A DNA stretch of 64,000 bases from a virus. Lineage: Duplodnaviria > Caudoviricetes. This document shows positions 49,687 to 64,000 of the stretch, in pieces; position 1 is the first letter of the stretch, and every line of letters begins with the position of its first letter. Under the pieces are notes generated by a model that was given only the letters and a program-made list of their open reading frames with translations, ran no database searches and had not been told where the DNA came from. The position numbers were made by a program, and so were the translations under genes. Location: the IMG/VR virus record IMGVR_UViG_3300025437_000009; one strand, given 5' to 3'.

Positions 49687-49687
49687 A

Positions 49688-49951
49688 CTAATTTCCTTTT
49701 AATTTCCATATAATATGTTCTGTAGTTTCGTGATATCTGAACTCAACCACAGGTTCGCCTGGGCCTGTCCACATTGCTGTGCCTTCGTAGACAAACTGTA
49801 AAAATAACCAACGACCGGTTAAGGAACTACGTTTTGGTAACCATAAAAACTTTAATCGCCAATGGGCACGATTATAGAAAGCATCGTAAGTTTCATCCAT
49901 GCCTGTATATAAGCCTTGTGGAAACATTACTTGCCCCAGCCATTGCCCCAT
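49688..49951 (-). CDS. Hypothetical protein
   Basis: Trp-rich ORF; start uncertain. Confidence 0.55.
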   Translation of the reverse strand: MGQWLGQVMFPQGLYTGMDETYDAFYNRAHWRLKFLWLPKRSSLTGRWLFLQFVYEGTAMWTGPGEPVVEFRYHETTEHIIWKLKGN

Positions 49952-50787
49952 AGGTCCACATGCAATCTGGGACTATAATTAAATCCACGTTCGCAACAGA
50001 TATTGGCAATGTTTAGTTTATTTGATTCGTATGGATCAACAACACCACCCTGCGGCATTAAGTATACGGTACCTTTAAATCCACCTGCACGGAAAGCATC
50101 CACAGCACGTGTAGCTTCATTAACATGATCTTCAGTTTCAACAACAAACTTAAGATATACATGTCCATATGTTTGATAGATATTAACAATTAGTGGCTTA
50201 ATAGCATCATCCCACGATTCGCCTGATGCTGATAGTTTAGCACTGACTGAGAATGTAACTTCACGACCTGAACCAGCATCGGCCCAGTCAATCAAGTAAT
50301 CGCGGAAGTCTTCATGTAATTCTTGAGTACCATTTGTTTCAAACGTAATGTTCTTTAAGTCTGCCATACGTGGATGACTTAACAAATCAGCATAAGCACG
50401 TTGCCAGCCTAAAAGTGGCTCACCGCCAGTAATAACTAAATGTACATCATTGCCATTGTTCTGTACCCAACTACCGTTGGGAGTTAGGGCTAACATCTTG
50501 TCTACAAGTTCATCTGTAGTGTATGTTGGAGACAAATGTTTGAACGCAGGATGCCATGACGCATATGAATCACAGCCTGTTTCTACTAAAGGAAGATCTA
50601 AAAAATCTTTATACAGTTCTACCTTTTTAGCAACTTCATCTGCACCTGTAGACTTTTCACCAGGCTTACACCCAAACCCTGAACAGGTAAAGTTACATCC
50701 ATAAGTTCTTAAGAATACACTAGGTACTCCCACAAAGCGACCTTCGCCTTGTAGACTGTAAAATATTTCACTGACTTTAATCTTCAT
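49927..50787 (-). CDS. queE: 7-carboxy-7-deazaguanine synthase (radical SAM)
   Basis: SEIFYSLQGEG, VFLRTYGCNFTC, CDS, VITGGEPLL, ITFETNGT, SPRLHVDLWGN. Confidence 0.88.
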   Translation of the reverse strand: MKIKVSEIFYSLQGEGRFVGVPSVFLRTYGCNFTCSGFGCKPGEKSTGADEVAKKVELYKDFLDLPLVETGCDSYASWHPAFKHLSPTYTTDELVDKMLALTPNGSWVQNNGNDVHLVITGGEPLLGWQRAYADLLSHPRMADLKNITFETNGTQELHEDFRDYLIDWADAGSGREVTFSVSAKLSASGESWDDAIKPLIVNIYQTYGHVYLKFVVETEDHVNEATRAVDAFRAGGFKGTVYLMPQGGVVDPYESNKLNIANICCERGFNYSPRLHVDLWGNGWGK

Positions 50788-51033
50788 ATATTTTTGACCA
50801 TTCAACTAATTTTTGACTCTTACGCAACTGCGCCGCACGCAATTCTGCATCTGTATATACCTGATGTGCTTTGAGCAATTCTATTAATAGTGTAACATCT
50901 CCTAGCTCTTGAGTCAAGTGTTCTCTTTGGGTACCACCGTCTTTGTACCGATTTTCCATACCAAAGCGGCGGCATTTACTAATAGCCTGTATAACCTCAG
51001 CACACTCCTCTTGGAGTATGTCTAAGATTTCAT
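50777..51033 (-). CDS. MazG-like NTP pyrophosphohydrolase
   Basis: LQEECAEVIQAISK..RFG...L.QELGDV; a TAATG overlap with queD suggests start 51033. Confidence 0.75.
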
Positions 51034-51539
51034 TAACCTTCGAAGAGGTCTTCATTCCACTCACGATGTCCTTCACGGAACGCCATATTGCTTTGTGTTT
51101 CACGTACTTCTACACGATAACACCAAAGTCGATCAGCTTCTGCTTGACCCCACATGTCGGGAATATAAACTCCGTTTACAAACTTGTATAGTTGATCGGC
51201 TAGACCTTCACAACCTAGTTTAGGTAGGACGGTTAGTTTAGCTAGATTCTTTTCTTGCAATAATTTGTATGTTTCAAGCTCAGGATCATCCTCGGCTACT
51301 AATAATGTATGATCAAATTGACTTTCAAGAATGCCTTTGAGTTCTTTAAGACCGCCGTAGTCGGCAGCCCAATTACGCACATCTAGGTCATCTGTACCAA
51401 AGTAAAATTTCATACTAAACGAATAGCCGTGAATTAAGTTACAGTGACTATCAGCTCGCCATTGGCGATATGCACAGGGAAATGCATCGTGATACTCTTT
51501 AGTACTTGTGTACTTGTACTGCCTAGATTGGTTTGCCAT
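51033..51539 (-). CDS. queD: 6-carboxytetrahydropterin synthase (QueD/PTPS T-fold)
   Basis: SHCNLIHGY, DYGGLK, FDHTLLV, GCEGLA, VEVRET. Confidence 0.88.
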   Translation of the reverse strand: MANQSRQYKYTSTKEYHDAFPCAYRQWRADSHCNLIHGYSFSMKFYFGTDDLDVRNWAADYGGLKELKGILESQFDHTLLVAEDDPELETYKLLQEKNLAKLTVLPKLGCEGLADQLYKFVNGVYIPDMWGQAEADRLWCYRVEVRETQSNMAFREGHREWNEDLFEG

Positions 51540-51546
51540 TATAAAT

Positions 51547-51612
51547 CTCCTATGTTAATTATAGCATAGGCGGCAGAATTTGTAAAGCGGGATGACGCCG
51601 AAAGGCCGCTGA
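51547..51612 (-). ncRNA. Candidate cis-regulatory RNA (pseudoknot plus RBS-sequestering hairpin) in the queD leader; alternatively a sigma70 promoter
   Basis: AGCGG/CCGCU stem; loop CGGCG can pair with downstream UGCCG; CCUAUG/CAUAGG hairpin covers AGGAG. The same DNA also reads TTTACA-N17-TATAAT. Confidence 0.45.
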
Positions 51613-51626
51613 TTTTGGGAATATAA

Positions 51627-51806
51627 CTATTTATCTTGCGCAACTGGTGGTGAAACATTTGTGTCCACTTTAGTTGTATCAATTCCCATCTTTTTAGATA
51701 AGTATGGATCGATGTAAGGTTTATTAACAGTTTCATCTGCAACATTCCACCCCACGGCACTGACAAATCCTACTAATAACCAAGTTCCAATAAGTTCGAG
51801 TATCAA
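51627..51806 (-). CDS. Small membrane protein (59 aa, TTG start)
   Basis: MILELIGTWLLVGFVSAVGWNVAD...; fills the gap exactly; translated by hand. Confidence 0.55.
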   Translation of the reverse strand: MILELIGTWLLVGFVSAVGWNVADETVNKPYIDPYLSKKMGIDTTKVDTNVSPPVAQDK

Positions 51807-52364
51807 TTAACGCCACCACTCTTCCCAGGGGAACACAGCCCACTGTGGTTCTTCATTTTTGTTAATACTTAGACCCATGTAATCCACATCTTTGAATTCA
51901 CTAGCTTCATTATTGATTAGTACAGCAAAGCGTACATTATTACCAAATACATTTGCCCAACGTGAATTATCTGGCAGACAACTTGATTGCCAATCTTTTC
52001 GAATCCAGTTAAGGGTAGCACCCGTGTCGTTGATGTCATCTACTATGAGAATATTTTTAGCATGTAGGCTAAAATCAAACGCACCATCTCCGCCTAAGGC
52101 TTTATAACTTCCATCAATCCAGCCAAATGCATCTTCGGCCATCCACAAGTTAGATTCTGGCCCAGCAAGGTCGTCGCGGAAACTTACTTTAAGTGTTTCC
52201 ATTGGTACATCTAAGTATTGACTCAGCATGTTAGCAGGAACTAGACCGCCACGTGTAAGACCTACAACGTAATCGGGCTTCCAACCATCGGCATTCATTG
52301 CACGAATAATTTCGTGTATCCAACCTTTAACAGTTGATTCTTTATAAAATACTTTTCTAGACAT
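51807..52364 (-). CDS. Type I phosphoribosyltransferase (purine PRTase-like)
   Basis: VVGLTRGGLVPA, ILIVDDINDTGATL, W.VFPWE. Confidence 0.88.
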   Translation of the reverse strand: MSRKVFYKESTVKGWIHEIIRAMNADGWKPDYVVGLTRGGLVPANMLSQYLDVPMETLKVSFRDDLAGPESNLWMAEDAFGWIDGSYKALGGDGAFDFSLHAKNILIVDDINDTGATLNWIRKDWQSSCLPDNSRWANVFGNNVRFAVLINNEASEFKDVDYMGLSINKNEEPQWAVFPWEEWWR

Positions 52365-52680
52365 ATTGTTCTGCTTCTTTTAAATTATGTGATTGTACGT
52401 GATCTATAAACTTTAATAAAAACATGCTTGCTGTACTTGCATCGGCACCATCAAAACGGATTAGTGTTAGATTAGTCCCATCTTTAGTTACATAACTAGG
52501 CTTTGCTTTACCGTATTGTACTTGTTTTATAGTATGTTCGCGACCTCGCCAGTCATATTCTTTAAGCATTGTGGCTTTTCCGCCAATCATGTTAAACCAC
52601 TCGCCCATTTCATCGGAGAGTTCTTTTACATAAAACCGAATTTCATAAGCTACCCGACATCCTGGTGGTAATTGAATCAT
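52357..52680 (-). CDS. Hypothetical protein
   Basis: ORF in the operon. Confidence 0.65.
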   Translation of the reverse strand: MIQLPPGCRVAYEIRFYVKELSDEMGEWFNMIGGKATMLKEYDWRGREHTIKQVQYGKAKPSYVTKDGTNLTLIRFDGADASTASMFLLKFIDHVQSHNLKEAEQYV

Positions 52681-53030
52681 TGTTCTTCTGTTAAAGTTAA
52701 TACCATTTTAAGTTGTTCTTGTGCTAGTTCATACTTGGCCAGTGCATCTGCTACAGTAGCATTTTTAGCCGCAAGTTCTTTGATCTTTGATTCTTCAGAC
52801 ATTTTCTTTTGGCACCAATCTAGGGCACTAATAGCTGCACCGCTTAGGCTAACTTCAGCACTGGTACCAAACTGAATCCAAGTGCTTCCATTAAACACTT
52901 CCATATTATTACCATTCATACGAATCATGCCAGTGGCTGGATTATTATGGTCAGGGTAAATGTACGGACTGTTATTAAATCCTGAGACATTTAAATATCC
53001 TGAAGTATTGGAATAGATGCTGTTAATCAT
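52677..53030 (-). CDS. Hypothetical protein
   Basis: G.IR.NG..MEVF.GS.W domain followed by a coiled coil. Confidence 0.65.
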   Translation of the reverse strand: MINSIYSNTSGYLNVSGFNNSPYIYPDHNNPATGMIRMNGNNMEVFNGSTWIQFGTSAEVSLSGAAISALDWCQKKMSEESKIKELAAKNATVADALAKYELAQEQLKMVLTLTEEQ

Positions 53031-53254
53031 TTTTCAATATCCCGCAAACGAATACTTAAATCGCGAACATCGGTAATAAGTTGATTTTCGATCTTACTTA
53101 CAAGTTTTTTTAGTCGAGCGAGTCTGACGTGAGCATACACGATCGCAACAACTACGGCAGTAAAGGTCAATCCCCACCCAGCAATAATACCAACAATCCA
53201 AGACCAAAGGCCATTTACTTCACCAACTAAAGTTTGTATAGTTTGTGCTATCAT
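53027..53254 (-). CDS. Small membrane protein
   Basis: One hydrophobic segment plus a coiled coil. Confidence 0.6.
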   Translation of the reverse strand: MIAQTIQTLVGEVNGLWSWIVGIIAGWGLTFTAVVVAIVYAHVRLARLKKLVSKIENQLITDVRDLSIRLRDIEK

Positions 53255-53580
53255 GATCGTAATTTGCTCATAGTAATAATTTTGCCTAGTTCTCTATCAA
53301 AGTCGCTACCATCTGGGATAATGTATAACTCGCCGTTGTTATAATCATTTGTTTGCATCTGTATAATAGTGCCACCATTGGCTGGGGTAATTTTAATAGT
53401 CATTGTTTGACTAGACTGCGGTGCTTGTGCAACCCCATATCCAGCTGGATTAATATTAATAGTTCCTGGTGTGCCACCTAAGGTGTATGACATTGGTTTT
53501 TTATCTTTCTCTATTATAATTCTACCTGCCGCTAACCAGTTTAGTATACTGATGCGGAAATTCTTGAACCATAGCGTCAT
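53251..53580 (-). CDS. Hypothetical protein, paralog of 53577..53849
   Basis: PANGGTIIQ..YIIPDG.DFDRELGKIITMSKLRS. Confidence 0.65.
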   Translation of the reverse strand: MTLWFKNFRISILNWLAAGRIIIEKDKKPMSYTLGGTPGTININPAGYGVAQAPQSSQTMTIKITPANGGTIIQMQTNDYNNGELYIIPDGSDFDRELGKIITMSKLRS

Positions 53581-53849
53581 GAACGCAATAATTCCATGCT
53601 AACAATCTGACCAATACGTTCGCTAATATCTTCGCCGTCGGGGATAACGTGTGTGATATGATTGTTGCGATCAGTCTTGCGATCGTAGCAACGAATCTGT
53701 ACTACAGTTCCACCCTGTGCTGGCATAACATTAAATGACAAGCCTTCTACATCAACAGATCTAGAACCTACTACTACATCTTGCACAGGTTGACAGCTAT
53801 TCCAATCGTCACGAACCCATTTAACTACAATTTTCTTTAGCCATTTCAT
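53577..53849 (-). CDS. Hypothetical protein
   Basis: PAQGGTVVQ..HVIPDG.DISERIGQIVSMELLRS. Confidence 0.65.
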   Translation of the reverse strand: MKWLKKIVVKWVRDDWNSCQPVQDVVVGSRSVDVEGLSFNVMPAQGGTVVQIRCYDRKTDRNNHITHVIPDGEDISERIGQIVSMELLRS

Positions 53850-53947
53850 CTTGGAGCAAAGTCCTGTTGTAATTTGATATTGTCCATAAACTCTTTTTTG
53901 GTTCCTGGATCTGTGTTGAATGCACCTTTTAATACTGTGGTTTTCAT
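53846..53947 (-). pseudogene. Detached duplicate of the FolE C-terminus (33 aa ORF with its own RBS)
   Basis: MKTTVLKGAFNTDPGTKKEFMDNIKLQQDFAPR versus FolE end QTTVLRGAFLKDPATKKEFFDNIALQSRNGK; GGGAG-5nt-ATG. Confidence 0.8.
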
Positions 53948-53948
53948 A

Positions 53949-54071
53949 TCAACTCCCAAAAATGTATTTCACACAGGCCGCGATGATAGCAAATCTCATC
54001 AAGCCCAAAGTCCAGGTATTAGTCCAGAACTTTACTCGTTCCGCAAATTCATACTGTTCAAGAATGTTCAT
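53949..54071 (-). CDS. Small hypothetical protein (40 aa)
   Basis: MNILEQYEFAERVKFWTNTW...; translated by hand. Confidence 0.5.
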   Translation of the reverse strand: MNILEQYEFAERVKFWTNTWTLGLMRFAIIAACVKYIFGS

Positions 54072-54086
54072 TTTTCTTTGCCTCTC

Positions 54087-54266
54087 TTATTTAATATCCC
54101 AAATACCTTTTATGTGTTTAATAACTGTTTGACAGGATTTGACTAATTCTTTATTTGTTGGTGTGCATTGTTGTTCAAATTCAATAATGCCTTCCATTCG
54201 TTGAATAGCAAATTCATCCATAAAGTGTGTAAGGCTTGTATGTTTGTCGTAATGAATTGTTTTCAT
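54087..54266 (-). CDS. Small hypothetical protein (59 aa)
   Basis: MKTIHYDKHTSLTHFMDEF..., ATGA overlap with the upstream ORF. Confidence 0.5.
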   Translation of the reverse strand: MKTIHYDKHTSLTHFMDEFAIQRMEGIIEFEQQCTPTNKELVKSCQTVIKHIKGIWDIK

Positions 54267-54361
54267 TTCTCTTGTGCCTTTCTTATAATTGGTCTAAGCA
54301 TAAACACCCATACAGCGTGACTAACCCACCCAACAATGATACCCCAAACGAATGCGTTCAT
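54263..54361 (-). CDS. Small membrane peptide (32 aa)
   Basis: MNAFVWGIIVGWVSHAVWVFMLRPIIRKAQEK, GGAG RBS. Confidence 0.5.
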   Translation of the reverse strand: MNAFVWGIIVGWVSHAVWVFMLRPIIRKAQEK

Positions 54362-54457
54362 TCTTCAACTCCGAAATGTTTAATACCACTGTTTTTACAG
54401 CAACCAATTTTAACTTTAATCATAAATAAATTATACAGCAATCCTATAGGAAAGTCA

Positions 54458-55126
54458 ATGTTTTTAGATAACAAATATACTAAAGTTTATTACCAAATTA
54501 TTAATCGAGCATTAACACGACCATACAAAAAAGTAAAGAATGATGGATATCAAAAACATCATATTGTTCCAAAATGTATTGGAGGCACTGATTCTACTGA
54601 TAATCTTGTAATACTCAGTTATAAAGAACATAGAGTATGCCATTGTTTACTGATCAAAATGCAACTTACAAAATCAGCAGAAATCAAAATGCGACACGCC
54701 TACGGATTTTTTAATAAGAGTAGCAGATATAATGGGCCACGATATAAACGAGGGAAAGACAATATATTTTCTACTAAGGAAATCGTCGATCAAGTTCGTA
54801 AGCGTATGAAAGAAAACAATCCAATGAAGGATCCACTCTCTCAACAAAAAAGAGTCGATACCTGGAGAGCAAATAGAGCCGCACGAGATTACATTCCGCC
54901 GCGAGTCCTTAAGGACAAATTCATTACGCCAAGCGGCATTTTCAAAACCAAAAAAGAAATACAAAAAGTTGTAGGTATTCCAGAATGGACACTAAACACT
55001 ATCTACAACGATTTAGATGCTTACCCTGTTACAAACGGCAGGGCAAGCAAAAAAATCAATCACTTAAATATCGATCCAACAAAAACTTGGAGAGACAATG
55101 GGTTTGGATTACTTGCCGTTTCTTGA
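54458..55126 (+). mobile_element. Free-standing HNH homing endonuclease gene, antisense to folE
   Basis: KY...Y..II.RA...YQKHHIVPKCIGGTDSTDNLVILSYKEHRVCHCLL; TAAATA and an AGGA RBS upstream of ATG 54458. Confidence 0.85.
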
Positions 55127-55912
55127 TTGTAACGCAATATTGTCAAAGAATTCTTTTTTGGTAGCAGGATCTTTAAGGAATGCTCCGCGAAGAACAGTAG
55201 TTTGAGTCAAAGAGCTGTGTGCCATTATGCCCCTATTGGTGCAACAACCATGTTCACATTCTATATATACACCAATGTTATCGGAATCAGTGGCCTTGCT
55301 TATTTCACGTGCTATATCGTTACATAGCTCTTCTTGTAAAGTACCACGGCGAGCACACCATTGAGCAATGCGAGTATACTTGCTAAGACCAATAAGTTTG
55401 TTTGCGGCAATGATCCCAATATAAGCCACTCCACTAACTGGCTGATGATGATGGCTACACATACTACGAAGTTCAGAGCGTACAACCAACATACCCTCGT
55501 ATCTATCTTCACTGTCGTTTGGAAACGCTGTGGCGTCTGGTCTTGGTGCATATCTACCTTCCATAATTTCATTAAAATACATCTTGGCCAAGCGACGTGC
55601 TGTGCCTTGGCTATTTGGATCAGTTTCTCGATCGATTAATAGGGTATCTAGCACTTGCTCAAACGCTTCTGTAGCTTCATTAATAAGAATTTCTTTATCG
55701 CTTTCGCTTACATAATCACTGATATTGTCTCCAGCCCAGAAACGTTTCTTGTCACGCTTCATATTGAAACGGATAGCATCAGCAAGATTTGCTTCTTCAT
55801 ATCCTTTGTCGCTCATATTCATTGCGGCATCTTCATATCCAGGATGATATGGTGCTTCTTGTACTAGTAAATCTGCTATTTTTTGTTCTTCTGGTGATGC
55901 GTAGTTAGGCAT
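55109..55912 (-). CDS. folE: GTP cyclohydrolase I
   Basis: TARRLAKMY, SMCSHH, GLSKYTR, RGTLQEEL, EHGCCTNRG; start MPNYAS after a GGAG RBS. Confidence 0.95.
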   Translation of the reverse strand: MPNYASPEEQKIADLLVQEAPYHPGYEDAAMNMSDKGYEEANLADAIRFNMKRDKKRFWAGDNISDYVSESDKEILINEATEAFEQVLDTLLIDRETDPNSQGTARRLAKMYFNEIMEGRYAPRPDATAFPNDSEDRYEGMLVVRSELRSMCSHHHQPVSGVAYIGIIAANKLIGLSKYTRIAQWCARRGTLQEELCNDIAREISKATDSDNIGVYIECEHGCCTNRGIMAHSSLTQTTVLRGAFLKDPATKKEFFDNIALQSRNGK

Positions 55913-55952
55913 TCGTTTCTCCGAGTTAGTGTCGTGGATGACTTTATTGTAT

Positions 55953-55981
55953 ATTATAAGGTATTTAGATCTGTGTGTCAA
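55953..55981 (-). promoter_or_regulatory. sigma70-type promoter of folE
   Basis: Perfect TTGACA-N17-TATAAT. Confidence 0.85.
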
Positions 55982-56022
55982 ATATAATTAAATTTATTTG
56001 TCCATTAACGGTTAAATACAGA

Positions 56023-58023: not shown

Positions 58024-58026
58024 TGG

Positions 58027-58236
58027 TTATTGATCGTTTTCTGGCTGTCCGCCTGTACAAGATCCGCCTTCAAACCAAAGCCCTTGGGCTTCTTTTTGAT
58101 ATTGTGCTAGATCATATTCGTCTTTTTTACGCTTATACTCATCTTCAGTGAGAGCATGCCACCCACAGCACTTACCTATTGGGCTACGGCCGCAACCACA
58201 GCCACCAAAATTATCGTTACTTGTTCTTACTTGCAT
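58027..58236 (-). CDS. CDGSH-like Fe-S/Zn-binding small protein
   Basis: CGCGRSPIGKCCGWH resembles CxCx2Sx3PxCDGSH. Confidence 0.55.
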   Translation of the reverse strand: MQVRTSNDNFGGCGCGRSPIGKCCGWHALTEDEYKRKKDEYDLAQYQKEAQGLWFEGGSCTGGQPENDQ

Positions 58237-58456
58237 TTTTTAATTTCCAAATGGTTTCTTTAGCTTCTTGCAAATCTGTAAAAAGACTATCGTTTAGATT
58301 TTTAGCAACAGCTAGTTCTTCTCGAAGTTTTTGTTCACTATCTGTAATTTTTGGAGTTTCATTTTTGTCACTAACTCTACCAGCAACAAACCCGCAAAAA
58401 AGTGCAACAACAAATAATAATACGCTCATTGAGGTTTCTCCTTTAATCCTCGCCAT
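58217..58456 (-). CDS. Small membrane-anchored coiled-coil protein
   Basis: Hydrophobic N-terminus; true start probably MSVLLF. Confidence 0.6.
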   Translation of the reverse strand: MARIKGETSMSVLLFVVALFCGFVAGRVSDKNETPKITDSEQKLREELAVAKNLNDSLFTDLQEAKETIWKLKNASKNK

Positions 58457-58629
58457 TTTTCAATTTTTATTACTGTTTCCCAGCCCTTTTTCTTGGACCA
58501 AGTTTCTCTGTGCGGCCAAGGCCAATGTGCAGTCATTACATCATACTCGCCTTCGTTGACTGGATCGACGTCGCCAGGAAACCAATCGGTTAATAAGGAT
58601 TCAAGATCTTCGGTGGTAAAGGTTGTCAC
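58426..58629 (-). CDS. Hypothetical protein
   Basis: TDWFP...PV.EG.Y...W.....W....WRGL motif. Confidence 0.65.
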   Translation of the reverse strand: MTTFTTEDLESLLTDWFPGDVDPVNEGEYDVMTAHWPWPHRETWSKKKGWETVIKIEKWRGLKEKPQ

Positions 58630-58630
58630 A

Positions 58631-59836
58631 TTAATCCTCTAACTGAATAAATTCTTGTCTAAGTTCTTCCAGTGCGGCATTCATACCAGCAATAAACTCT
58701 TGTTTTTCGGTCTGGGTAATACAATATTTCTCACGATTGGCCTGACCTTCTTTGGTGTCTGGATCGTAATCAATAAATGAGAACTCGGTGCCATCACAAT
58801 CAGGGCAATGATCGTTATAATCGTCATCGGTCCTGCGTTCCTCACTCATACCTGTCCACCCACACTTTTTGTTGTCGCAGATGAGATCTGGCGGCTCAGG
58901 TGGTTGGTTGGCCCAGTTGCTAGTGTCCCAGTTGTATCCAGACCAGCGATCCACACTGGTGATAGGGTTGAACTTGCCAAATTCCCATTCACCAAAGTTG
59001 TTGCCATCCCAGTATAGGCTACCATGGGTAGTACCAAAATGACTCCATACAGCATTGTAATATCCTGGATATACCGGCTTGTGTTTGGCAAACTTAAAGG
59101 TGACAGACCTTTCCCAACTGGCCGGACTGGTGCCGTATTCTGGATGTCCCCAATCCTTCTCTCCGGGTTCATAGCGTTCAAAGTTGCCTTCGTCGTCAAT
59201 CATCCGTACCATATTAAACTCACTGCTCTTGCCGTCGGTTGAGCCGCCCCAATTGTCGATGTCTTCGCCATCATAGCTGATACCATGTACAATCTCTTCG
59301 TCGTCAAAGTCGGAAATATGTAAGGTTAATTTTTCAATATCAAATGGTGCTGTAAGTTCTAGTTCAGCTTCAAAGAATGTACCTTTTTCGTTTGAACTTC
59401 CTACAAACACAACTTCGCCTTTTTTGCGACTTCCAATCCAAACTTCATCATCGGTGTCGAGCTGTGCGCTATCATCACAGCCATCAAACTCTTCCAGACT
59501 TTTCTCAAGTACTGTATCACCGTTCTCATCTTCAATCTGTAAGGTGCCAGCATCACGACTAACACCGTGAACATGACCCATGCTGTCGCATTCGTACCAC
59601 GATCCTGGGTAGAACGGCAACTGGTCAGGATCAAGACCCATGTTTTCAGCGGCATCACTATCCCAAGCCAAATCGCTGAGATCTACTTGATGTTCCATGC
59701 AGTAATCCCATACCTTGGGATCCACTGTGCCCATGACCTTTTCGCCACCGTAGCCCCACATAGAGATTTTATAAGTACGTGGTGTAAATTTAAGAACTTC
59801 AATTAGTTGTTCTGCTGTGATATCTTTAGTTGCCAT
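58631..59836 (-). CDS. Acidic hypothetical protein with C-terminal Zn ribbon
   Basis: Very Asp/Glu-rich; CDNKKCGW...CPDC. Confidence 0.75.
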   Translation of the reverse strand: MATKDITAEQLIEVLKFTPRTYKISMWGYGGEKVMGTVDPKVWDYCMEHQVDLSDLAWDSDAAENMGLDPDQLPFYPGSWYECDSMGHVHGVSRDAGTLQIEDENGDTVLEKSLEEFDGCDDSAQLDTDDEVWIGSRKKGEVVFVGSSNEKGTFFEAELELTAPFDIEKLTLHISDFDDEEIVHGISYDGEDIDNWGGSTDGKSSEFNMVRMIDDEGNFERYEPGEKDWGHPEYGTSPASWERSVTFKFAKHKPVYPGYYNAVWSHFGTTHGSLYWDGNNFGEWEFGKFNPITSVDRWSGYNWDTSNWANQPPEPPDLICDNKKCGWTGMSEERRTDDDYNDHCPDCDGTEFSFIDYDPDTKEGQANREKYCITQTEKQEFIAGMNAALEELRQEFIQLED

Positions 59837-59841
59837 TTTTT

Positions 59842-60090
59842 TTACCTATTTAGAGTTGACCAAGTGAGCCATTCCTTAAAAGCATTATACACTTCTTTGA
59901 CTTCTTTGTCATCCTGTTCGAGTTTCACGCCACGTACATAAAAGCCATCTTCGGCTACACGTAGCATTTCGGTTTCTCCTGAACATAGAGTAATATCGTT
60001 TTTTGGAGAAGTGAATACAACAGGCTTGGTATTAACGGCATTAGCCTTAACCATATTTTGATACCAAACCGGGTCAGTATTTACGCTCAT
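59842..60090 (-). CDS. Hypothetical protein
   Basis: EMLRV..DGFYVRGVKL motif. Confidence 0.65.
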   Translation of the reverse strand: MSVNTDPVWYQNMVKANAVNTKPVVFTSPKNDITLCSGETEMLRVAEDGFYVRGVKLEQDDKEVKEVYNAFKEWLTWSTLNR

Positions 60091-60093
60091 ATG

Positions 60094-61191
60094 TTATTTT
60101 CCGAGATTAATTAATAACTTGTCGGCACTAAAGAACTCTTGAGTCAACATGTCTGTTTGTTTTTGTAAAATTGGTAGTAGCACATCGTATTCTTCCATAT
60201 ACTGTTTAATTTTATTGCAAAGGAAGGGTTTGTACACTTCATAAGAACTATAGCTGTCAGTCCATTCTGAAGGATATTTAAATGCATCAAGAGCCATTTC
60301 TTGATAGCTCAAACGATCAGGAACCAATGGAATAGCATCGACTAAACAGCCTTCATACCAACTAATACCTAGGGTTTCTTGAAGATTAGCTGAAAATACT
60401 ATTTTTGCTTGACCCAATAAGGTATGATATTGATCTTTGGTTAGCGTTTGGTCTTGACAAACAACAAATTCATATTGCGGTAAGTCACGTGCTAGGTCTC
60501 TAAAAATTTCTACTTGTTTTTCTGGAGCAATACGGTGTGGGAAAAGGATGAGATCTCGTTTGGCAATTCCCTTGTATGGAGCAAGCGTGTCCTGCATATA
60601 CTCCATAGGCCAGCCTGAACGCACAATCTTTTTGTTCATGAATAGTGATGCTTTATCTTCACTAGCCCAAGGATTTTCGCTTTTAACCCCATTCTCTAAC
60701 AGGTTATCAACAAACATATTGATGTGAAAGTCAGTAGCAAAATAGTTGTGATCAAACGAGTGAAAGAAACTCTTTTCAGCATGTCTAACCCAAGGTGCAT
60801 CGCCAATCAATCTACCTAAGAAATCTTGAGGATCATATGAGCCAGCATGCCATAGTCCGTGTGTAGTCACTAGAATGTTCAGCAACTCACTCATGTATTT
60901 TAAGTTGATGATACCAGGATGCCAAGCATCAGTAAAGATAAAATGATCGCCAGACTGAACTGCTCCGGCACAAAATAGACGACCCAACTGTTCCACTTGG
61001 TTAGCTTTGTATATATTAGTACCACCAAAGTTAAGGAAAGCACCAGGGGTAGTGGCACTGGGAATGTCTGTAGGTCCTGCAATAACTTGAACATCATGTC
61101 CTGCCTTTCGTAGAAGATCGGGTACATGGCTCTTCCACTGGCCAGTGTACCTAGTTTCAACACTTTCTAAATCAATTAAAAATACTGTCAT
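60094..61191 (-). CDS. GT-B-fold glycosyltransferase, possibly acting on DNA
   Basis: D.FIFTDAWHPG, HAGSYDP.DFLG, LFPHRIAPEKQ, FSANLQETLGISWYEG. Confidence 0.7.
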   Translation of the reverse strand: MTVFLIDLESVETRYTGQWKSHVPDLLRKAGHDVQVIAGPTDIPSATTPGAFLNFGGTNIYKANQVEQLGRLFCAGAVQSGDHFIFTDAWHPGIINLKYMSELLNILVTTHGLWHAGSYDPQDFLGRLIGDAPWVRHAEKSFFHSFDHNYFATDFHINMFVDNLLENGVKSENPWASEDKASLFMNKKIVRSGWPMEYMQDTLAPYKGIAKRDLILFPHRIAPEKQVEIFRDLARDLPQYEFVVCQDQTLTKDQYHTLLGQAKIVFSANLQETLGISWYEGCLVDAIPLVPDRLSYQEMALDAFKYPSEWTDSYSSYEVYKPFLCNKIKQYMEEYDVLLPILQKQTDMLTQEFFSADKLLINLGK

Positions 61192-61640
61192 TTTCCAATA
61201 GTAATAGTTGCTGGATTTAGTGTACTATCGTTTTCAACATCTGTCAAATTAAATGTAGTACTAGAGCTAGTGTATGGTCCAGATGGGATAGTGCCCCACG
61301 GACTACCTGGATTAGCATATGGGCTATAGGGACTGCCCGGACCTGGCATGTATGGATTTACTGTGGGAGGTATGTAAGAATTTCTCTGTCTAACTTCATT
61401 CTCCACATTTGCCAGTCTGGAACGAATGCTCTTTAAATCTTCCTGCATTTGACGTAGTGGACCGTGACTGGTTTCTACTGCCATACGTCCATCGTCTTGT
61501 GGGCGTGTTAGCTCAATAATAGTTAGCAATCCACGTAAGGCACTTTGTACACGTTCGTCCTTGCTGGTCATTGCTTCATCTAAATACGCAAACATGCGTT
61601 CTATTTCATAATCTGCTTGGGTTTTCTCTCGCATACTCAT
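61188..61640 (-). CDS. Hypothetical protein
   Basis: Coiled coil plus Pro-rich tail. Confidence 0.65.
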   Translation of the reverse strand: MSMREKTQADYEIERMFAYLDEAMTSKDERVQSALRGLLTIIELTRPQDDGRMAVETSHGPLRQMQEDLKSIRSRLANVENEVRQRNSYIPPTVNPYMPGPGSPYSPYANPGSPWGTIPSGPYTSSSTTFNLTDVENDSTLNPATITIGK

Positions 61641-61643
61641 GTG

Positions 61644-61781
61644 TTACTCTTTGTAAATTTGGAATAAACTTTGAAATGGAATACTGTAAACAGAAAATCT
61701 AATAGCACTGGTTAGTGTGCTAAAAGATTTTCTAATTTTGCGACCACTTGAAATGTAGTAGCTGACTGTATAATTAGTCAC
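61644..61781 (-). CDS. Possible small protein (45 aa, GTG start)
   Basis: Fills the gap and overlaps the upstream stop. Confidence 0.4.
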   Translation of the reverse strand: MTNYTVSYYISSGRKIRKSFSTLTSAIRFSVYSIPFQSLFQIYKE

Positions 61782-62037
61782 GTGGTTTCCAACTAGTATC
61801 GCGAGGTTTAAAATCCTTGCGATCACGTTTAGGAGTACGCCATTGATCCCAAGGTTCACGACCACGAACCATTTTCATGTATTCGCTATAAGGGCCACGA
61901 TCCTTATAAAGATCACGTTCGTCATATGAATAACCATAATCTCGACAGAATTGATGATATACTTCTAAATCATCAAAGATCTGCTTGACTTCGGGTTTCA
62001 TACGAAGATACTTGGTGAGCCATTCTGGTTTGGCCAT
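61774..62037 (-). CDS. Hypothetical protein
   Basis: AGGAG RBS. Confidence 0.7.
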   Translation of the reverse strand: MAKPEWLTKYLRMKPEVKQIFDDLEVYHQFCRDYGYSYDERDLYKDRGPYSEYMKMVRGREPWDQWRTPKRDRKDFKPRDTSWKPRD

Positions 62038-62049
62038 TTTACTACTCCT

Positions 62050-62493
62050 TTAAATTACGATTGATTGAGCAGGACGGGTGAGGTTATAATCAATTGAGCA
62101 TCCGTTTTCACCGTCCTCGGATACTTCAATTGTTACAGCACGATCAGGATAACGTGCAGCAATTTGTACATACAAGTCATCTGCCATCATCTCGCAGGAT
62201 TTCCAGTCGAGCGCCAGCACACCGTCTTGATACAGATTAACGAGCCAGCGTTTGAACTGGATGAATTCAATATCTCGGTCGTTGTGGAACACATCGATAG
62301 AAACACGGAAATGAAACATATGACGATGAGGGCTAGCCAAAAACGATACATCATATTCTCCTGCGGTATTCAAGTTGGGGTCTGTGGCTGCCGCTGGATA
62401 GCAGTGGATGCCTTCTTTTTCAAACGTGACCCAAATCTGTCGTTGGGCCGCGGCCATTATTCTATCTACTACTGCACGTTGTTCTTGATTCAT
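62050..62493 (-). CDS. QueD-like T-fold protein (DpdL-like)
   Basis: FLASPHRHMFHF (LxxxHRHxF), DRDIEFI, SCEMMA, VSEDGENG. Confidence 0.65.
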   Translation of the reverse strand: MNQEQRAVVDRIMAAAQRQIWVTFEKEGIHCYPAAATDPNLNTAGEYDVSFLASPHRHMFHFRVSIDVFHNDRDIEFIQFKRWLVNLYQDGVLALDWKSCEMMADDLYVQIAARYPDRAVTIEVSEDGENGCSIDYNLTRPAQSIVI

Positions 62494-62494
62494 G

Positions 62495-63073
62495 TTATTC
62501 AAAGTCAAAGAGTTTAAGAGAATCTCTCATAGAAGAGATGATGAGTATTTGCTTCATTGCTGTATTAGTGATACGATATCTGTAGGAGTTAGGATGATTA
62601 AACCCATCAAATACCGCCCACCTGTTACTACTAGTAATAGTTTTTGTACGCACACCTGCAACAAGTTGCCGGCGTAAATCTTCATAAGCATCTTTTAGTT
62701 TGCTTTGAATTTCTGGTAAGGCCATATCTACAATTTTTACATCGGCAACTTCTCTAAATACCGGATCCCATGTTACTTGATTTTGATTTTGTACCTTAGG
62801 ATAAAAACCGGTTTCTTCCCAAACAGGGGTAGCAATAATATCGGAAATGGTCATCGACCCAACGGTATGATTGGCATTACTGCCTTTCTTACGAGTCTTG
62901 TTATCAATGTTATATTCGGGCATGTCGACACGACCTTTGGAATCGATTGTGTGACCCTTACGCATCATTTCTGCGTCTACCCATTGTCCTACATCACAGT
63001 CATTACGTACTTCCGGTAATGGTGCAAGTTTTTCAATGTTATCTTTAATAACACTTACTCGGGCTTGTTTCAT
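62495..63073 (-). CDS. Hypothetical protein, possible PD-(D/E)xK nuclease
   Basis: G.WVD...VDMPEYNIDNKTRK; weak motif only. Confidence 0.55.
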   Translation of the reverse strand: MKQARVSVIKDNIEKLAPLPEVRNDCDVGQWVDAEMMRKGHTIDSKGRVDMPEYNIDNKTRKKGSNANHTVGSMTISDIIATPVWEETGFYPKVQNQNQVTWDPVFREVADVKIVDMALPEIQSKLKDAYEDLRRQLVAGVRTKTITSSNRWAVFDGFNHPNSYRYRITNTAMKQILIISSMRDSLKLFDFE

Positions 63074-63582
63074 TTGATTACTTCGTCTTTAGTGTACTTC
63101 GACCAATCCGTAAATACCTTACGGTCCCTTAATTCATGTAAACTGTGACACCAAATACCTGGGTTAGTAGCCGCATAGTCTTTGTCATCGAGCTTAATTG
63201 TAGCATTATATCCCAGCAGTTGTATATAGGGCAATTTCACCGAAATCATTGGGATAAAGTTATTGAATTCTGTCAATCGACCACTGGTTATCTGTTCTAC
63301 GTTAGCAACATCAAAGTCTAAGGTACATAACCAACCTGCTTCTAAGCAGTCAGTGATCATCATTTCCCAATCCTGCATTTCATCTGAGTCCATATCCGAC
63401 TGAGGAAAACTTTGATTAGCACCAAAATAAATGTGTGTGCAATTATTGTTTTTAGCTTCTTGCTGAATAATTTGACTGTCTTGAATACCAACCACAAACA
63501 GAGTTTGATGCCCAAATGCTGGTGAGTGTTCAACTTCTGTGCCAGTAAAAAATTCTATTTCATCGTGCCCAGGTCTATCCAT
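63070..63582 (-). CDS. Hypothetical protein in the deazaguanine neighbourhood
   Basis: FTGTEVEH.P..G..TLFVVG, CTHIYFGANQSF, D..ATNPG.WCH. Confidence 0.7.
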   Translation of the reverse strand: MDRPGHDEIEFFTGTEVEHSPAFGHQTLFVVGIQDSQIIQQEAKNNNCTHIYFGANQSFPQSDMDSDEMQDWEMMITDCLEAGWLCTLDFDVANVEQITSGRLTEFNNFIPMISVKLPYIQLLGYNATIKLDDKDYAATNPGIWCHSLHELRDRKVFTDWSKYTKDEVIK

Positions 63583-63772
63583 TTGCTTTTTGCTCTCTAA
63601 ATTCTAATTCAGATTTAAGTTTAACAATATTATCTTTAATATGCAACCTTTGTTGTTTCAATTTATGTAGATGCTCGTCATTAAATTTGCCTGTAGATTC
63701 CATGCCATCAATCTTTTTATCGATCTCTGCGTGTTCTTTTTCTAAATGTGCAATACGTCCTAAGAGTGTCAT
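63575..63772 (-). CDS. DUF465/YdcH-like small coiled-coil protein
   Basis: L.KEH.EIDKKI...L..LK..RL.IKD.I. Confidence 0.7.
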   Translation of the reverse strand: MTLLGRIAHLEKEHAEIDKKIDGMESTGKFNDEHLHKLKQQRLHIKDNIVKLKSELEFREQKANG

Positions 63773-63999
63773 TCTTCCCCCAAATGATCAAGTTTAGTTT
63801 CATCAAATCCAGAATCATCAATATGATGTTCTTCTTCCTCGTCTACTTCGCCTTCTACTACAAATAACTGGTCAAACATAGCGGAACCATTAATGGCTTT
63901 TGTACCTTTATTTCCACGGGTACCAATGATTTCAGTCCAGTACTTACTGTAGCCATCAACAATCTCCATACTTTTTTCTTTAGTGGGTGCTGCAAAGAT
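63769..63999 (-). CDS. 3' end of a gene starting beyond the window; possibly DpdA/TGT-like
   Basis: Frame is open to the window edge (IFAAPTKEKSMEIVDGYSKYW.EIIGTRG..G...F..LF, acidic tail). Identity inferred from neighbourhood and recollection only. Confidence 0.4.
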   Translation of the reverse strand: MFAAPTKEKSMEIVDGYSKYWTEIIGTRGNKGTKAINGSAMFDQLFVVEGEVDEEEEHHIDDSGFDETKLDHLGEE

Positions 64000-64000
64000 A

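What the first reader, a model, noticed from the sequence alone, without database searches (positions are those of the whole stretch)
49927..64000. 7-deazaguanine pathway with a QueD-like second T-fold and no QueC in view
Seen: folE, queD, queE, a purine PRTase, a MazG-like enzyme, an LxxxHRHxF T-fold protein, and a truncated gene at the edge. Known: FolE-QueD-QueE make CDG from GTP, QueC makes preQ0, and DpdA inserts the base into phage DNA. As I recall, LxxxHRHxF QueD-like proteins (DpdL) are linked to unsubstituted 7-deazaguanine. Inference: the genome carries a CDG/DG-derived anti-restriction base. The PRTase could allow a nucleotide-level route instead of base exchange, with MazG trimming the pool.
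Basis: partly seen in the sequence, partly recalled or inferred. Interest (0 to 1): 0.75.

Follow-up and report, generated by a model that had tools for sequence, protein, structure and literature searches.

The report
Phage 7-deazaguanine DNA-modification gene cluster
This stretch of an uncultured freshwater giant phage carries the QueC-less "DpdL-type" gene set for replacing guanine in its DNA with a 7-deazaguanine base. The gene cut off at the window's edge is the supposedly missing DNA transglycosylase, so this is a new member of a known anti-restriction system.

Summary
FolE, QueD, QueE, a purine-type PRTase, a MazG-like pyrophosphohydrolase and an LxxxHRHxF T-fold protein (DpdL; 57% identical to the Acidovorax phage ACP17 DpdL, 33% to the phiST DpdL) are all present. 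No QueC is found in the window or in two near-complete ~350-kb relatives.

The main new result concerns the truncated gene at the edge. It is the C-terminus of a 543-aa protein with a DSGGFQ motif and a confident tRNA-guanine-transglycosylase fold (Z 18.7). This protein is homologous to Pseudomonas phage PA5oct gp168 and, more distantly, to the ACP17 TGT-like protein.

The phage is a PA5oct-like jumbo phage, and PA5oct DNA is reported to resist G-containing restriction sites. The most likely mechanism is GTP → CDG → 7-deazaguanine (DG) → base exchange into DNA.

The PRTase recurs inside DpdL-type clusters of several unrelated phage lineages and is absent from four QueC-type phages. Two close relatives keep DpdL but lack it, so it looks accessory, probably guanine salvage. 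A tubercidin-like nucleotide route remains possible (~20%). A GT-B glycosyltransferase also travels with DpdL, so the final base may be more than plain DG.

Verdict: a new member of a known kind.

The parts
49927..50805 (-). QueE-like radical SAM enzyme (CDG synthase)
   Evidence: phrog_2076 'QueE-like radical SAM domain', 7e-55. 91% identical to the G002 orthologue and 32% to ACP17 QueE.
50777..51103 (-). MazG-like NTP pyrophosphohydrolase. The ORF overlaps QueD. The true start is probably the internal ATG near 51055.
   Evidence: Pfam MazG 25.4 bits (cut-off 22) and phrog_4856 1.5e-21. The G002 match begins at residue 20. EExxE and ExxD motifs are visible in the translation.
51033..51539 (-). 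QueD (CPH4 synthase, PTPS T-fold) with a CxxxHGY motif
   Evidence: PF01242 2e-13 and phrog_2389 2e-35. 54% identical to ACP17 QueD. phiST, ACP17 and RHph_I1_18 QueD show the same CxxxHGY form.
51540..51806 (-). Spacer between the PRTase and queD. It holds a 58-aa small hydrophobic ORF directly after the PRTase stop, then a ~95-nt conserved queD leader.
   Evidence: Alignment with L107 and L108. No Rfam family matches.
51807..52364 (-). Type I purine-like phosphoribosyltransferase (PRPP loop VDDINDTG, C-terminal WxVFPWE)
   Evidence: PF00156 7e-16. PDB relatives are 1vdm, 4z1o, 2jky and XPRTs. QueE lies within 10 kb in 78 of 80 IMG/VR loci that carry a homologue.
54236..55126 (+). HNH homing endonuclease, a mobile insertion that is not part of the pathway
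   Evidence: phrog_655 1e-24. Absent at this position in L004 and G002.
55109..55981 (-). FolE (GTP cyclohydrolase I) with a ~100-aa N-terminal extension
   Evidence: PF01227 9e-39 over residues 105-282. phrog_2197 3e-44.
60094..61191 (-). GT-B glycosyltransferase-like protein that travels with DpdL
   Evidence: 34% identical to ACP17 ASD50404, which weakly hits Glycos_transf_1. 45% identical to PA5oct gp167. ESM Atlas neighbours are GT1/GT4 families. A homologue lies next to DpdL in BUCT-ZZ01, and a diverged one in G001 and G003.
62050..62508 (-). DpdL: QueD-like T-fold paralogue with L57-A-S-P-H-R-H-M-F65, the proposed CDG decarboxylase
   Evidence: tblastn: 57% identical to ACP17 DpdL (3e-43) and 33% to phiST CGPG_00067 (7e-14). 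Invariant H35, H61, H63, H75, E81, E106 and E131. hhalign against QueD gives 92.5% probability.
62495..63073 (-). Variable 192-aa insertion between o170 and DpdL, function unknown
   Evidence: Present in only 5 of 80 related loci and absent in L004.
63070..63582 (-). Conserved 170-aa protein of unknown fold (o170), next to the transglycosylase gene
   Evidence: Found in 77 of 80 DpdA-like loci. 25-27% identical to ACP17 ASD50402, which also lies directly upstream of the ACP17 TGT-like gene. The AF2 model has pLDDT 85 with no convincing structural match.
63769..64000 (-). C-terminal 76 codons of the 543-aa DpdA-like transglycosylase (TGT fold). The rest lies beyond the window and is seen whole at L005:8183-9814.
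   Evidence: L005 is 100% identical to window 53950-64000. DSGGFQ motif. AF2 pLDDT 89. The Foldseek top 50 are all TGT, E 3e-6. VIA-align Z 18.7. 39% identical to PA5oct gp168.

Best explanation
The region is the 7-deazaguanine DNA-modification module of an uncultured freshwater jumbo phage related to Pseudomonas phage PA5oct. Relatives have genomes of about 350 kb.

Proposed pathway:
1. FolE, QueD and QueE convert GTP to 7-carboxy-7-deazaguanine (CDG). This is inferred from family membership.
2. There is no QueC, so the pathway cannot go on to preQ0.
3. The T-fold paralogue DpdL is the proposed CDG decarboxylase that gives 7-deazaguanine (DG). This is inferred, and the activity has never been shown biochemically.
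4. The 543-aa TGT-fold protein, whose 3' end is the truncated gene at the window edge, exchanges guanine in phage DNA for the deazapurine base. This is inferred from the fold, from two invariant Asp residues that I equate with the TGT catalytic pair, and from homology to phage DpdA-type proteins.

The result is G-modified, restriction-resistant DNA.

The PRTase and the MazG-like enzyme are accessory, since some relatives lack the PRTase. The PRTase most likely turns the displaced guanine back into GMP and then GTP. That would feed FolE and pull the exchange forward. MazG would act on the (d)GTP or deaza-nucleotide pool.

A GT-B glycosyltransferase-like protein and a conserved 170-aa protein also belong to the module and may act after insertion.
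For: DpdA-like protein:
- DSGGFQ motif.
- Model pLDDT 89.
- TGT fold by Foldseek at probability 1.0 and VIA-align Z 18.7 over ~300 residues.
- D103, D149, H268 and D301 (in SFDC) are invariant or nearly so across 45 diverse homologues.
- BFVD hits include named phage TGT/queuine tRNA-ribosyltransferase entries, a Vibrio phage nt-1 protein and the phiST protein M4SLA5.
- The family HMM scores the ACP17 TGT-like protein at 26.6 bits and phiST DpdA3 at 11.6 bits.

No QueC in the window or in near-complete relatives.

The same cluster order is found in the 100%-complete relative G002 and in PA5oct, as gp168 DpdA-like, gp167 GT, gp166 DpdL, gp163 PRTase and gp162 QueE.

Literature:
- phiST carries DpdL and has dDG in place of G (PMC10516641).

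PRTase as an accessory:
- G001 (97% complete) and G003 keep DpdL and QueE but have no PF00156 gene.
- ACP17 and RHph_I1_18 likewise have none.
- On the tree the phage PRTases group with chromosomal PRTases of marine Bacteroidota. The Brevundimonas phage PRTase groups with alphaproteobacterial ones. This suggests that ordinary host-type purine PRTases were recruited more than once.
Against: - No DNA chemistry is available for this phage. The identity of the PA5oct modification is unknown.
- DpdL activity has never been shown. DpdL plus DpdA from phiST and from ACP17 gave no dDG in E. coli (PMC10516641).
- The transglycosylase-like protein misses the Pfam TGT model and lacks a conserved CxCxxC...H zinc motif. 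It is 120 to 280 residues longer than the ACP17 TGT-like protein and phiST DpdA3. Its substrate is therefore inferred, whether DNA, tRNA or nucleotide.
- The salvage idea does not explain why Campylobacter phage CP220, which replaces G fully with ADG, has no PRTase, while PRTases cluster with DpdL.
- A conserved glycosyltransferase-like gene next to DpdL has no role if the product is plain DG.
Confidence: 0.6

Rival explanations
1. Tubercidin-like nucleotide route. The PRTase couples CDG (or DG) to PRPP. DpdL decarboxylates the resulting 7-carboxy-7-deaza-GMP. Kinases and ribonucleotide reductase then give 7-deaza-dGTP, which the phage polymerase incorporates while the MazG-like enzyme depletes dGTP. 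The TGT-like protein would be secondary, for example for proofreading or patching, or for exchange on nucleotides.
For: - The gene logic matches the tubercidin pathway: FolE, QueD and QueE, no QueC, a CDG-specific PRTase (TubE), a decarboxylase (TubF) and a nucleotide hydrolase (TubG) (PMC6112128).
- The phage PRTase hits TubE-like PRTases inside four Streptomyces tubercidin-type clusters at 31-33% identity.
- PRTases sit inside DpdL clusters in the window's family (78 of 80 loci), PA5oct, BUCT-ZZ01 and the contig L227. phiST carries one elsewhere in its genome. None is found in 9g, CAjan, nt-1 or CP220.
- Counting the six DpdL lineages checked with the Pfam model or by tblastn, that is 4 of 6 DpdL lineages against 0 of 4 others, one-sided hypergeometric p = 0.07.
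- phiST replaces all of its G, and DpdL plus DpdA alone failed in E. coli.
Against: - G001, G003, ACP17 and RHph_I1_18 keep DpdL without any PRTase. A host enzyme is unlikely to stand in for a CDG-specific PRTase.
- The phage PRTases are not sister to the TubE-like clade.
- A conserved TGT-fold enzyme with intact catalytic Asp residues is always present.
- Hutinet et al. argue that every known case is post-replicative.
Confidence: 0.2
2. The final DNA base is not plain DG but a further decorated deazaguanine. The GT-B glycosyltransferase-like protein would act on the inserted base or its precursor. In this sub-lineage the AMP-binding enzyme, the DegT-like protein, or the sulfotransferase-like and methyltransferase genes upstream might also contribute. 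This reading can coexist with either route above.
For: - GT365 homologues lie directly beside DpdL or DpdA in ACP17, PA5oct, BUCT-ZZ01, in 35 of 80 family loci, and in diverged form in G001 and G003.
- PA5oct is targeted by END nucleases, which sense hypermodified bases.
- The adenylate-forming enzyme (55975-57102) sits between FolE and the DegT-like gene. From general knowledge of that enzyme family, it could in principle activate the CDG carboxylate.
Against: - phiST, the only DpdL phage with solved chemistry, has plain dDG and no GT.
- G002 lacks GT365.
- The AMP-binding gene occurs in only 5 of 80 loci.
- DG has no obvious acceptor group for a sugar.
- END nucleases also hit phages with simple 7-deazaguanine-modified G, the Nonagvirus and Seuratvirus groups.
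Confidence: 0.25
3. No DNA modification. The genes would supply queuosine precursors for tRNA, or pterins, during infection.
For: FolE, QueD and QueE are shared with tRNA-queuosine and pterin metabolism. The TGT fold is also that of the tRNA enzymes.
Against: - There is no QueC or QueF, so no preQ0 or preQ1 can be made.
- DpdL is known only from phage DNA-modification clusters.
- The cluster sits beside the DNA polymerase gene.
- The cultured relative PA5oct has restriction-resistant DNA.
Confidence: 0.05

Closest known systems
[quoted passage not shown] 2023, NAR, PMC10516641)
   Same: - FolE, QueD, QueE, DpdL with LxxxHRHxF, a TGT-like transglycosylase, and no QueC.
- A MazG-like gene lies in the cluster, as in phiST.
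- A PRTase is encoded, as in phiST.
- A GT-B gene and an o170-like gene flank the transglycosylase, as in ACP17.
   Different: - The transglycosylase is a 543-aa form. It is only remotely similar to phiST DpdA3 (259 aa; 11.6 bits) and to the ACP17 protein (424 aa; 26.6 bits).
- The PRTase is inside the cluster.
- Extra genes are interleaved (AMP-binding, DegT-like, a 401-aa zinc-ribbon protein).
- The host and the DNA chemistry are unknown.
Pseudomonas jumbo phage PA5oct (Wroclawvirus), cluster gp168-gp162
   Same: - Same order downstream of the DNA polymerase: DpdA-like gp168 (39% identity), GT gp167 (45%), DpdL gp166 (53%), a PRTase-domain protein gp163, and QueE gp162.
- PA5oct DNA is reported to carry a modified G (PMC12191111).
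   Different: - The PA5oct PRTase is too diverged for BLAST to find.
- No o170, MazG or AMP-binding homologue was detected in the PA5oct locus.
- The PA5oct genes are annotated as hypothetical, and the modification has not been identified.
Tubercidin biosynthesis in Streptomyces tubercidicus (TubA-G; Liu et al. 2018, PMC6112128)
   Same: - Makes CDG without QueC.
- Uses a PRTase, a decarboxylase and a nucleotide hydrolase.
- The phage PRTase is 31-33% identical to TubE-like PRTases in tubercidin-type clusters.
   Different: - The decarboxylase there is UbiD-family, not a T-fold protein.
- The hydrolase is Nudix, not MazG.
- It has a GMP reductase and no TGT-like enzyme.
- The product is a free nucleoside antibiotic.
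- The phage PRTases are not sister to TubE on the tree.
tRNA-guanine transglycosylases and phage or bacterial DpdA (TGT superfamily, PF01702)
   Same: TIM-barrel TGT fold (Z 18.7) and the DSGGFQ motif. The two invariant Asp residues equate with the TGT catalytic pair; that equation rests on my recollection of the TGT motifs.
   Different: - No Pfam TGT hit.
- No conserved CxCxxC...H zinc site.
- About 150 extra residues, including an acidic, disordered C-terminal tail.

Membership tests
DpdL (proposed CDG decarboxylase, Hutinet 2023) | Signature LxxxHRHxF in place of the QueD CxxxHGH | tested here: met
   The motif reads L57-A-S-P-H61-R-H63-M-F65. L57, H61, H63 and F65 are invariant in 9 DpdL sequences. 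Only PA5oct has F in place of R.
DpdL (proposed CDG decarboxylase, Hutinet 2023) | Sequence homology to the named members phiST CGPG_00067 and ACP17 DpdL | tested here: met
   33% identity, 7e-14 to phiST. 57% identity, 3e-43 to ACP17.
DpdL (proposed CDG decarboxylase, Hutinet 2023) | QueD/PTPS T-fold relationship | tested here: inconclusive
   hhalign of DpdL against QueD alignments gives probability 92.5%, E 5e-7, but only over the C-terminal 47 columns. Pfam PTPS is not hit. No structure was predicted here.
DpdL (proposed CDG decarboxylase, Hutinet 2023) | Genomic context: FolE, QueD, QueE and a DpdA present, QueC absent | tested here: met
DpdL (proposed CDG decarboxylase, Hutinet 2023) | Decarboxylation of CDG to DG | not testable with these tools
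   The activity has not been shown for any member. Heterologous tests failed (PMC10516641).
DpdA / TGT superfamily | TGT-type TIM-barrel fold | tested here: met
   AF2 pLDDT 89. The Foldseek PDB top 50 are all TGT. VIA-align Z 18.7, rmsd 4.0 Å, 304 residues against 2ash_B.
DpdA / TGT superfamily | Catalytic aspartates (DSGGFQ Asp and the nucleophile Asp in the FDC motif) | tested here: met
   D103 in LGDSGGFQ and D301 in SFDCASP are invariant in 45 homologues. Equating them with Z. mobilis TGT D102 and D280 rests on my recollection of the TGT motifs, not on a residue-level superposition.
DpdA / TGT superfamily | Zinc site CxCxxC...H | tested here: not met
   No such motif is present. Only C374 (76%) and H426 (87%) are partly conserved after residue 301.
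DpdA / TGT superfamily | Match to Pfam PF01702 | tested here: not met
   The query gives no hit. 2 of 45 homologues hit at E 0.04. The model also misses the phiST and ACP17 proteins.
DpdA / TGT superfamily | Assignment to a named subfamily (DpdA1-4, bDpdA) | tested here: inconclusive
   The family HMM gives 26.6 bits to the ACP17 protein and 11.6 bits to phiST DpdA3. BFVD gives the nt-1 protein at 5.6e-9 and phiST M4SLA5 at 1.6e-2. The paper's supplementary lists are not held.
DpdA / TGT superfamily | Guanine-for-deazaguanine exchange in DNA | not testable with these tools
   A biochemical assay is required.
QueC (preQ0 synthase) | PP-loop ATPase matching PF06508 | tested here: not met
   None is found in the window, L005 or G002. 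The weak hits in G001 and G003 read as NadE.
Type I purine (6-oxopurine) PRTase | PF00156 domain with the acidic PRPP loop | tested here: met
   58 bits. The VDDINDTG loop is invariant. The best PDB relatives are purine, HG and X PRTases. Base specificity cannot be tested here.
TubE/ToyH-type 7-deazapurine PRTase | Clade membership with PRTases of Streptomyces deazapurine clusters | tested here: not met
   31-33% identity. On the tree, however, the phage PRTases fall in a 97/93-supported group with Bacteroidota chromosomal PRTases, apart from the Streptomyces clade. This lowers 'is a TubE'. It does not lower 'may act on a deazapurine'.
MazG NTP pyrophosphohydrolase | Pfam PF03819 over its cut-off | tested here: met
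   25.4 bits against a cut-off of 22.

The most novel reading that the evidence does not exclude
In DpdL-type phages the 7-deazaguanine is built and handled as a nucleotide, as in tubercidin biosynthesis. The steps would be CDG + PRPP → 7-carboxy-7-deaza-GMP, then DpdL decarboxylation, then 7-deaza-dGTP. MazG would clear dGTP, so G is replaced pre-replicatively. The PRTase, and perhaps the GT-B and o170 proteins, would then be the 'missing enzymes' that explain why DpdL plus DpdA could not be reconstituted.
Probability: 0.2. Interest if true: 0.8.

Novelty: new member of a known kind. Interest (0 to 1): 0.5.

Why it matters
The DpdL-type route to dDG is only predicted. The decarboxylase has never been shown to work, and heterologous reconstitution failed.

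This window belongs to a very abundant freshwater phage family. The transglycosylase alone has more than 7000 relatives in metagenomes, grouped into 929 clusters at 50% identity.

Comparing it with PA5oct, ACP17, BUCT-ZZ01 and phiST gives a short list of recurrent partner genes:
- a purine PRTase
- a MazG-like enzyme
- a GT-B glycosyltransferase
- a 170-aa protein

These are concrete candidates for the missing steps. They can be tested in the cultured phage PA5oct, whose modified G has not been identified.

The comparison also defines a large TGT-fold family that Pfam does not recognise. That family could serve as a marker for G-modified phage DNA in metagenomes.

Tried and rejected
- Near-identity DNA search of phage records: no match.
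- No whole genome is held for the window, and ENA loci cannot be searched as records.
- Pfam TGT search of ACP17, phiST and RHph_I1_18: no hit even where a DpdA is known, so Pfam cannot be used to call DpdA absent.
- tblastn of phiST DpdA3 and of the ACP17 424-aa protein against the window: nothing.
- The 401-aa ORF (58631-59836) is not the DpdA and has no relative in cultured phages.
- Profile of the DpdA-like family against PDB sequences: no meaningful hit.
- Supplementary tables of Hutinet 2023 are not held.
- o170: the ESM Atlas gives only scores below 0.85. Foldseek PDB gives E of 0.02 or worse. VIA-align wide gives a best Z of 7.0, within noise; QueE appears at Z 5.6-5.9.
- Complex prediction of DpdA-like with o170: no verdict.
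- Nanopore runs holding this DNA: none was listed. No RNA holder was listed.
- Rfam scan of 49000-64000: no family at E of 1 or better, so the preQ1-riboswitch idea for the queD leader gets no support from Rfam. Only close relatives align there, so covariation could not be tested.
- Weak QueC hits in G001 and G003 read as NadE. Three 385-435-aa PP-loop ORFs in G002 do not match the QueC model and are absent from the window.

Full report
**What is there**

The window has 40% G+C, no near match in cultured phage records and no genome held. It comes from a large T4-like or jumbo phage. It encodes tail fibres, ThyA, DHFR, a gp46/47-type exonuclease and a large sugar and radical-SAM island.

Between 49927 and 64000, nearly all genes lie on the minus strand:

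| Gene | Coordinates | Evidence |
|---|---|---|
| QueE-like radical SAM | 49927-50805 | phrog_2076, 7e-55 |
| MazG-like pyrophosphohydrolase | 50777-51103 | Pfam 25.4 bits > 22 |
| QueD | 51033-51539 | PF01242, 2e-13 |
| Type I PRTase | 51807-52364 | PF00156, 7e-16 |
| FolE | 55109-55981 | PF01227, 9e-39 |

The best solved relatives of the PRTase are archaeal purine PRTases, yeast HGPRT and XPRTs.

The "second T-fold" is the 152-aa ORF at 62050-62508, which reads L-A-S-P-H-R-H-M-F.

**DpdL**

Hutinet et al. 2023 (PMC10516641) defined DpdL as a QueD paralogue in which CxxxHGH has become LxxxHRHxF. It is found in phages that have FolE, QueD, QueE and a DpdA but no QueC. They proposed it as the CDG decarboxylase that makes the 7-deazaguanine which replaces G in Cellulophaga phage phiST DNA.

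The window protein is 57% identical to the DpdL of Acidovorax phage ACP17 (3e-43) and 33% identical to phiST CGPG_00067 (7e-14). It is also 60% identical to the DpdL homologue of Rhizobium phage RHph_I1_18 and 53% to the PA5oct one.

In an alignment of nine DpdLs the motif and the His and Glu residues are invariant. A profile comparison with QueD gives 92.5% probability, but only over the C-terminal 47 columns.

**The "missing" dpdA**

Pfam TGT does not detect DpdA even in phiST or ACP17, so its silence means nothing here. In ACP17 the 424-aa gene between the o170-like gene and the GT gene carries a DSGGLQ motif. No such motif occurs in the window.

An exact-protein look-up of the 170-aa gene near the edge returned an ENA contig, L005, that is 100% identical to window 53950-64000 and continues 9.6 kb further. 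There the gene truncated by the window (63769-64000) is a 543-aa ORF containing LGDSGGFQ.

Evidence on this protein:
- It has more than 7000 relatives among the 8000 candidates scored, and 929 clusters at 50% identity. None carries a Pfam domain or a name.
- With a 45-sequence alignment, AlphaFold gives pLDDT 89.
- The top 50 Foldseek matches in the PDB are all tRNA-guanine transglycosylase, at probability 1.0 and E about 3e-6.
- VIA-align gives Z 18.7, with about 300 residues aligned at 4.0 Å, against bacterial, human and archaeal TGTs.
- D103 (DSGGFQ), D149, H268 and D301 (SFDCASP) are invariant or nearly so. From my knowledge of TGT motifs, D103 and D301 correspond to the two catalytic aspartates.
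- The CxCxxC...H zinc motif is not present.
- BFVD matches include named phage TGTs, a Vibrio phage nt-1 protein and phiST M4SLA5.
- The family HMM scores the ACP17 protein at 26.6 bits and phiST DpdA3 at 11.6 bits.

It is the truncated edge gene.

**Which phage, and how conserved is the cluster**

The closest cultured relatives of the transglycosylase are Pseudomonas jumbo phage PA5oct and its kin, at 39% identity. The PA5oct locus has the same order downstream of the DNA polymerase: gp168 (DpdA-like), gp167 (GT, 45%), gp166 (DpdL), gp163 (PRTase domain) and gp162 (QueE).

IMG/VR holds at least 428 loci with the transglycosylase. In the 80 fetched:
- o170 is present in 77.
- DpdL is present in 70.
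- The GT is present in 35.
- PolB, a methyltransferase and o244 lie upstream. o244 is a PA5oct gp170 homologue, and gp170 is a virion protein.

A 356,865-bp relative rated 100% complete (G002) has the whole set in the same order, with FolE spanning the contig ends. No QueC over the cut-off occurs in G001 or G002. The weak hits in G001 and G003 read as NadE.

The runs listed as holding at least half of the sampled words are freshwater metagenome contigs from several studies, plus one marine run at 0.57.

**Experimental anchor**

A 2025 preprint (PMC12191111) reports three things about PA5oct. [quoted passage not shown] A modified G is suspected. The phage is restricted by END nucleases that sense modified bases. 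The modification itself was not identified.

phiST DNA has dDG in place of G. [quoted passage not shown]

**The PRTase**

Its homologues are common in this virus family, with at least 594 IMG/VR loci. In 78 of 80 fetched loci QueE lies within 10 kb. QueD and FolE are present in 53 each, and the gene order varies.

Among 50,697 cultured phage records, BLAST finds homologues in only eight:
- five phiST-group records
- the cyanophage BUCT-ZZ01, with the order QueE, PRTase, x, QueD, FolE, x, ACP17-type DpdA, DpdL, GT
- two Brevundimonas phages, where the PRTase lies next to FolE and QueD is elsewhere in the genome

The Pfam PRTase model also finds PA5oct gp163 inside its cluster. It finds nothing in ACP17, RHph_I1_18, 9g, CAjan, nt-1 or CP220. 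A contig binned with Nitrosotalea carries QueE, PRTase, FolE and DpdL.

The association is therefore with DpdL-type clusters: 4 of 6 lineages against 0 of 4 QueC-type or ADG-type phages, hypergeometric p = 0.07.

The scan of bacterial genomes also hit four Streptomyces loci at 31-33% identity. These are tubercidin-type clusters with PTPS, radical SAM, FolE, GMP reductase, PRTase, UbiD and Nudix. TubE is a CDG-specific PRTase that does not accept DG, and the tubercidin pathway also lacks QueC (PMC6112128).

Three results argue against the nucleotide-level idea as the core mechanism:
1. On a maximum-likelihood tree the phage PRTases fall with chromosomal PRTases of marine Bacteroidota (97/93 support), apart from the Streptomyces clade. 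The Brevundimonas phage enzyme falls with alphaproteobacterial ones. This looks like repeated recruitment of ordinary host-type enzymes.
2. Within the window's own family, G001 (97% complete) and G003 have DpdL and QueE but no PF00156 gene.
3. A TGT-fold enzyme with intact catalytic residues is always present.

I therefore rate the PRTase as an accessory enzyme. Its most likely role is to recycle the guanine displaced by base exchange into GMP and then GTP, which is the pathway's own substrate. The tubercidin-like route stays as a 20% rival.

Neither reading explains everything. CP220 replaces all of its G without a PRTase.

**Other recurrent partners**

The GT-B glycosyltransferase-like gene (60094-61191) lies beside DpdL or DpdA in ACP17, PA5oct and BUCT-ZZ01. 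A diverged copy does so in G001 and G003. It is missing in G002 and phiST. Plain DG offers no acceptor group, so the product in GT-bearing phages may differ from that of phiST.

o170 accompanies the transglycosylase in 77 of 80 loci and in ACP17. Its fold has no convincing match, and the complex prediction gave no verdict.

**Verdict**

This is a new, uncultured member of the known DpdL-type 7-deazaguanine DNA-modification system. The useful by-product is a short list of recurrent partner genes and a large TGT-fold family that Pfam does not recognise.

Noticed in passing
window 54236-55126 (+): HNH homing endonuclease (phrog_655, 1e-24) inserted beside folE. It is absent at this site in the 91-100% identical contig L004 and in G002, so it is a mobile insertion.
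   Followed up: partly
window 55975-57102 (+), 57086-57667 (-), 57664-58023 (-): Three genes sit between folE and the GT: a short (375-aa) AMP-binding/ANL adenylating enzyme on the opposite strand, a 193-aa DegT-like fragment and a 119-aa protein. They are conserved in G002 at 56-72% identity. The AMP-binding gene occurs in only 5 of 80 related loci. An adenylating enzyme next to a pathway that makes a carboxylated base is suggestive but untested.
   Followed up: partly
window 58631-59836 (-): 401-aa acidic protein with a C-terminal CxxC...CxxC zinc ribbon. It is 70% identical in G002, has no relative in 50,697 cultured phage records and no Pfam hit.
   Followed up: partly
window 51540-51806 (-): A 58-aa hydrophobic small ORF starts at the PRTase stop codon. 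It is followed by a ~95-nt queD leader with two hairpins that is conserved in L107 and L108. Rfam gives no match, and too few diverged copies align to test covariation.
   Followed up: partly
window 53251-53580 and 53577-53849 (-): Two adjacent small ORFs (109 and 90 aa) are paralogues with similar C-terminal halves (…IPDG.D…G.I..M..LRS). Function unknown. They are present in a minority of relatives.
   Followed up: no
L005:5822-8172 (beyond the window's right edge): Three genes lie directly upstream of the transglycosylase gene and just after the family-B DNA polymerase: a SAM-dependent methyltransferase (311 aa), a homologue of the PA5oct virion protein gp170 (244 aa) and a sulfotransferase-like protein (210 aa; PF03567, 2.7e-5).
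   Followed up: partly
L227:5228-8173 (contig binned as Nitrosotalea sp.): A compact QueE, PRTase, FolE, DpdL set lies on a 14-kb contig of an archaeal MAG. It is probably viral, and it is another independent pairing of PRTase with DpdL.
   Followed up: partly
L188 (Brevundimonas phage StAshley) 4640-6928: The order is dNMP kinase, FolE, PRTase and a 155-aa protein, next to the RNR genes, with QueD elsewhere in the genome. No DpdL motif is present in the locus. This may be a different PRTase-linked deazapurine or pterin pathway.
   Followed up: partly
L204, L205, L207, L216 (Streptomyces spp.): Tubercidin-type biosynthetic clusters (PTPS, radical SAM, FolE, GMP reductase, PRTase, UbiD, Nudix) were found as remote relatives of the phage PRTase.
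   Followed up: yes
window 10162-20323 (+) and 21415-29866: A run of radical-SAM-like ORFs is followed by a carbamoyltransferase, a kinase, an aminotransferase and an NDP-sugar epimerase. This is a large sugar-tailoring island, already the subject of other notes of this scan.
   Followed up: no
L189-L195 (genome contigs): Contigs carrying this phage cluster are binned into MAGs labelled Crocinitomicaceae, Chitinophagales, Neomarinimicrobiota, Rickettsiales and even Methanobacteriota. These are evidently viral contigs mis-binned into cellular genomes.
   Followed up: partly
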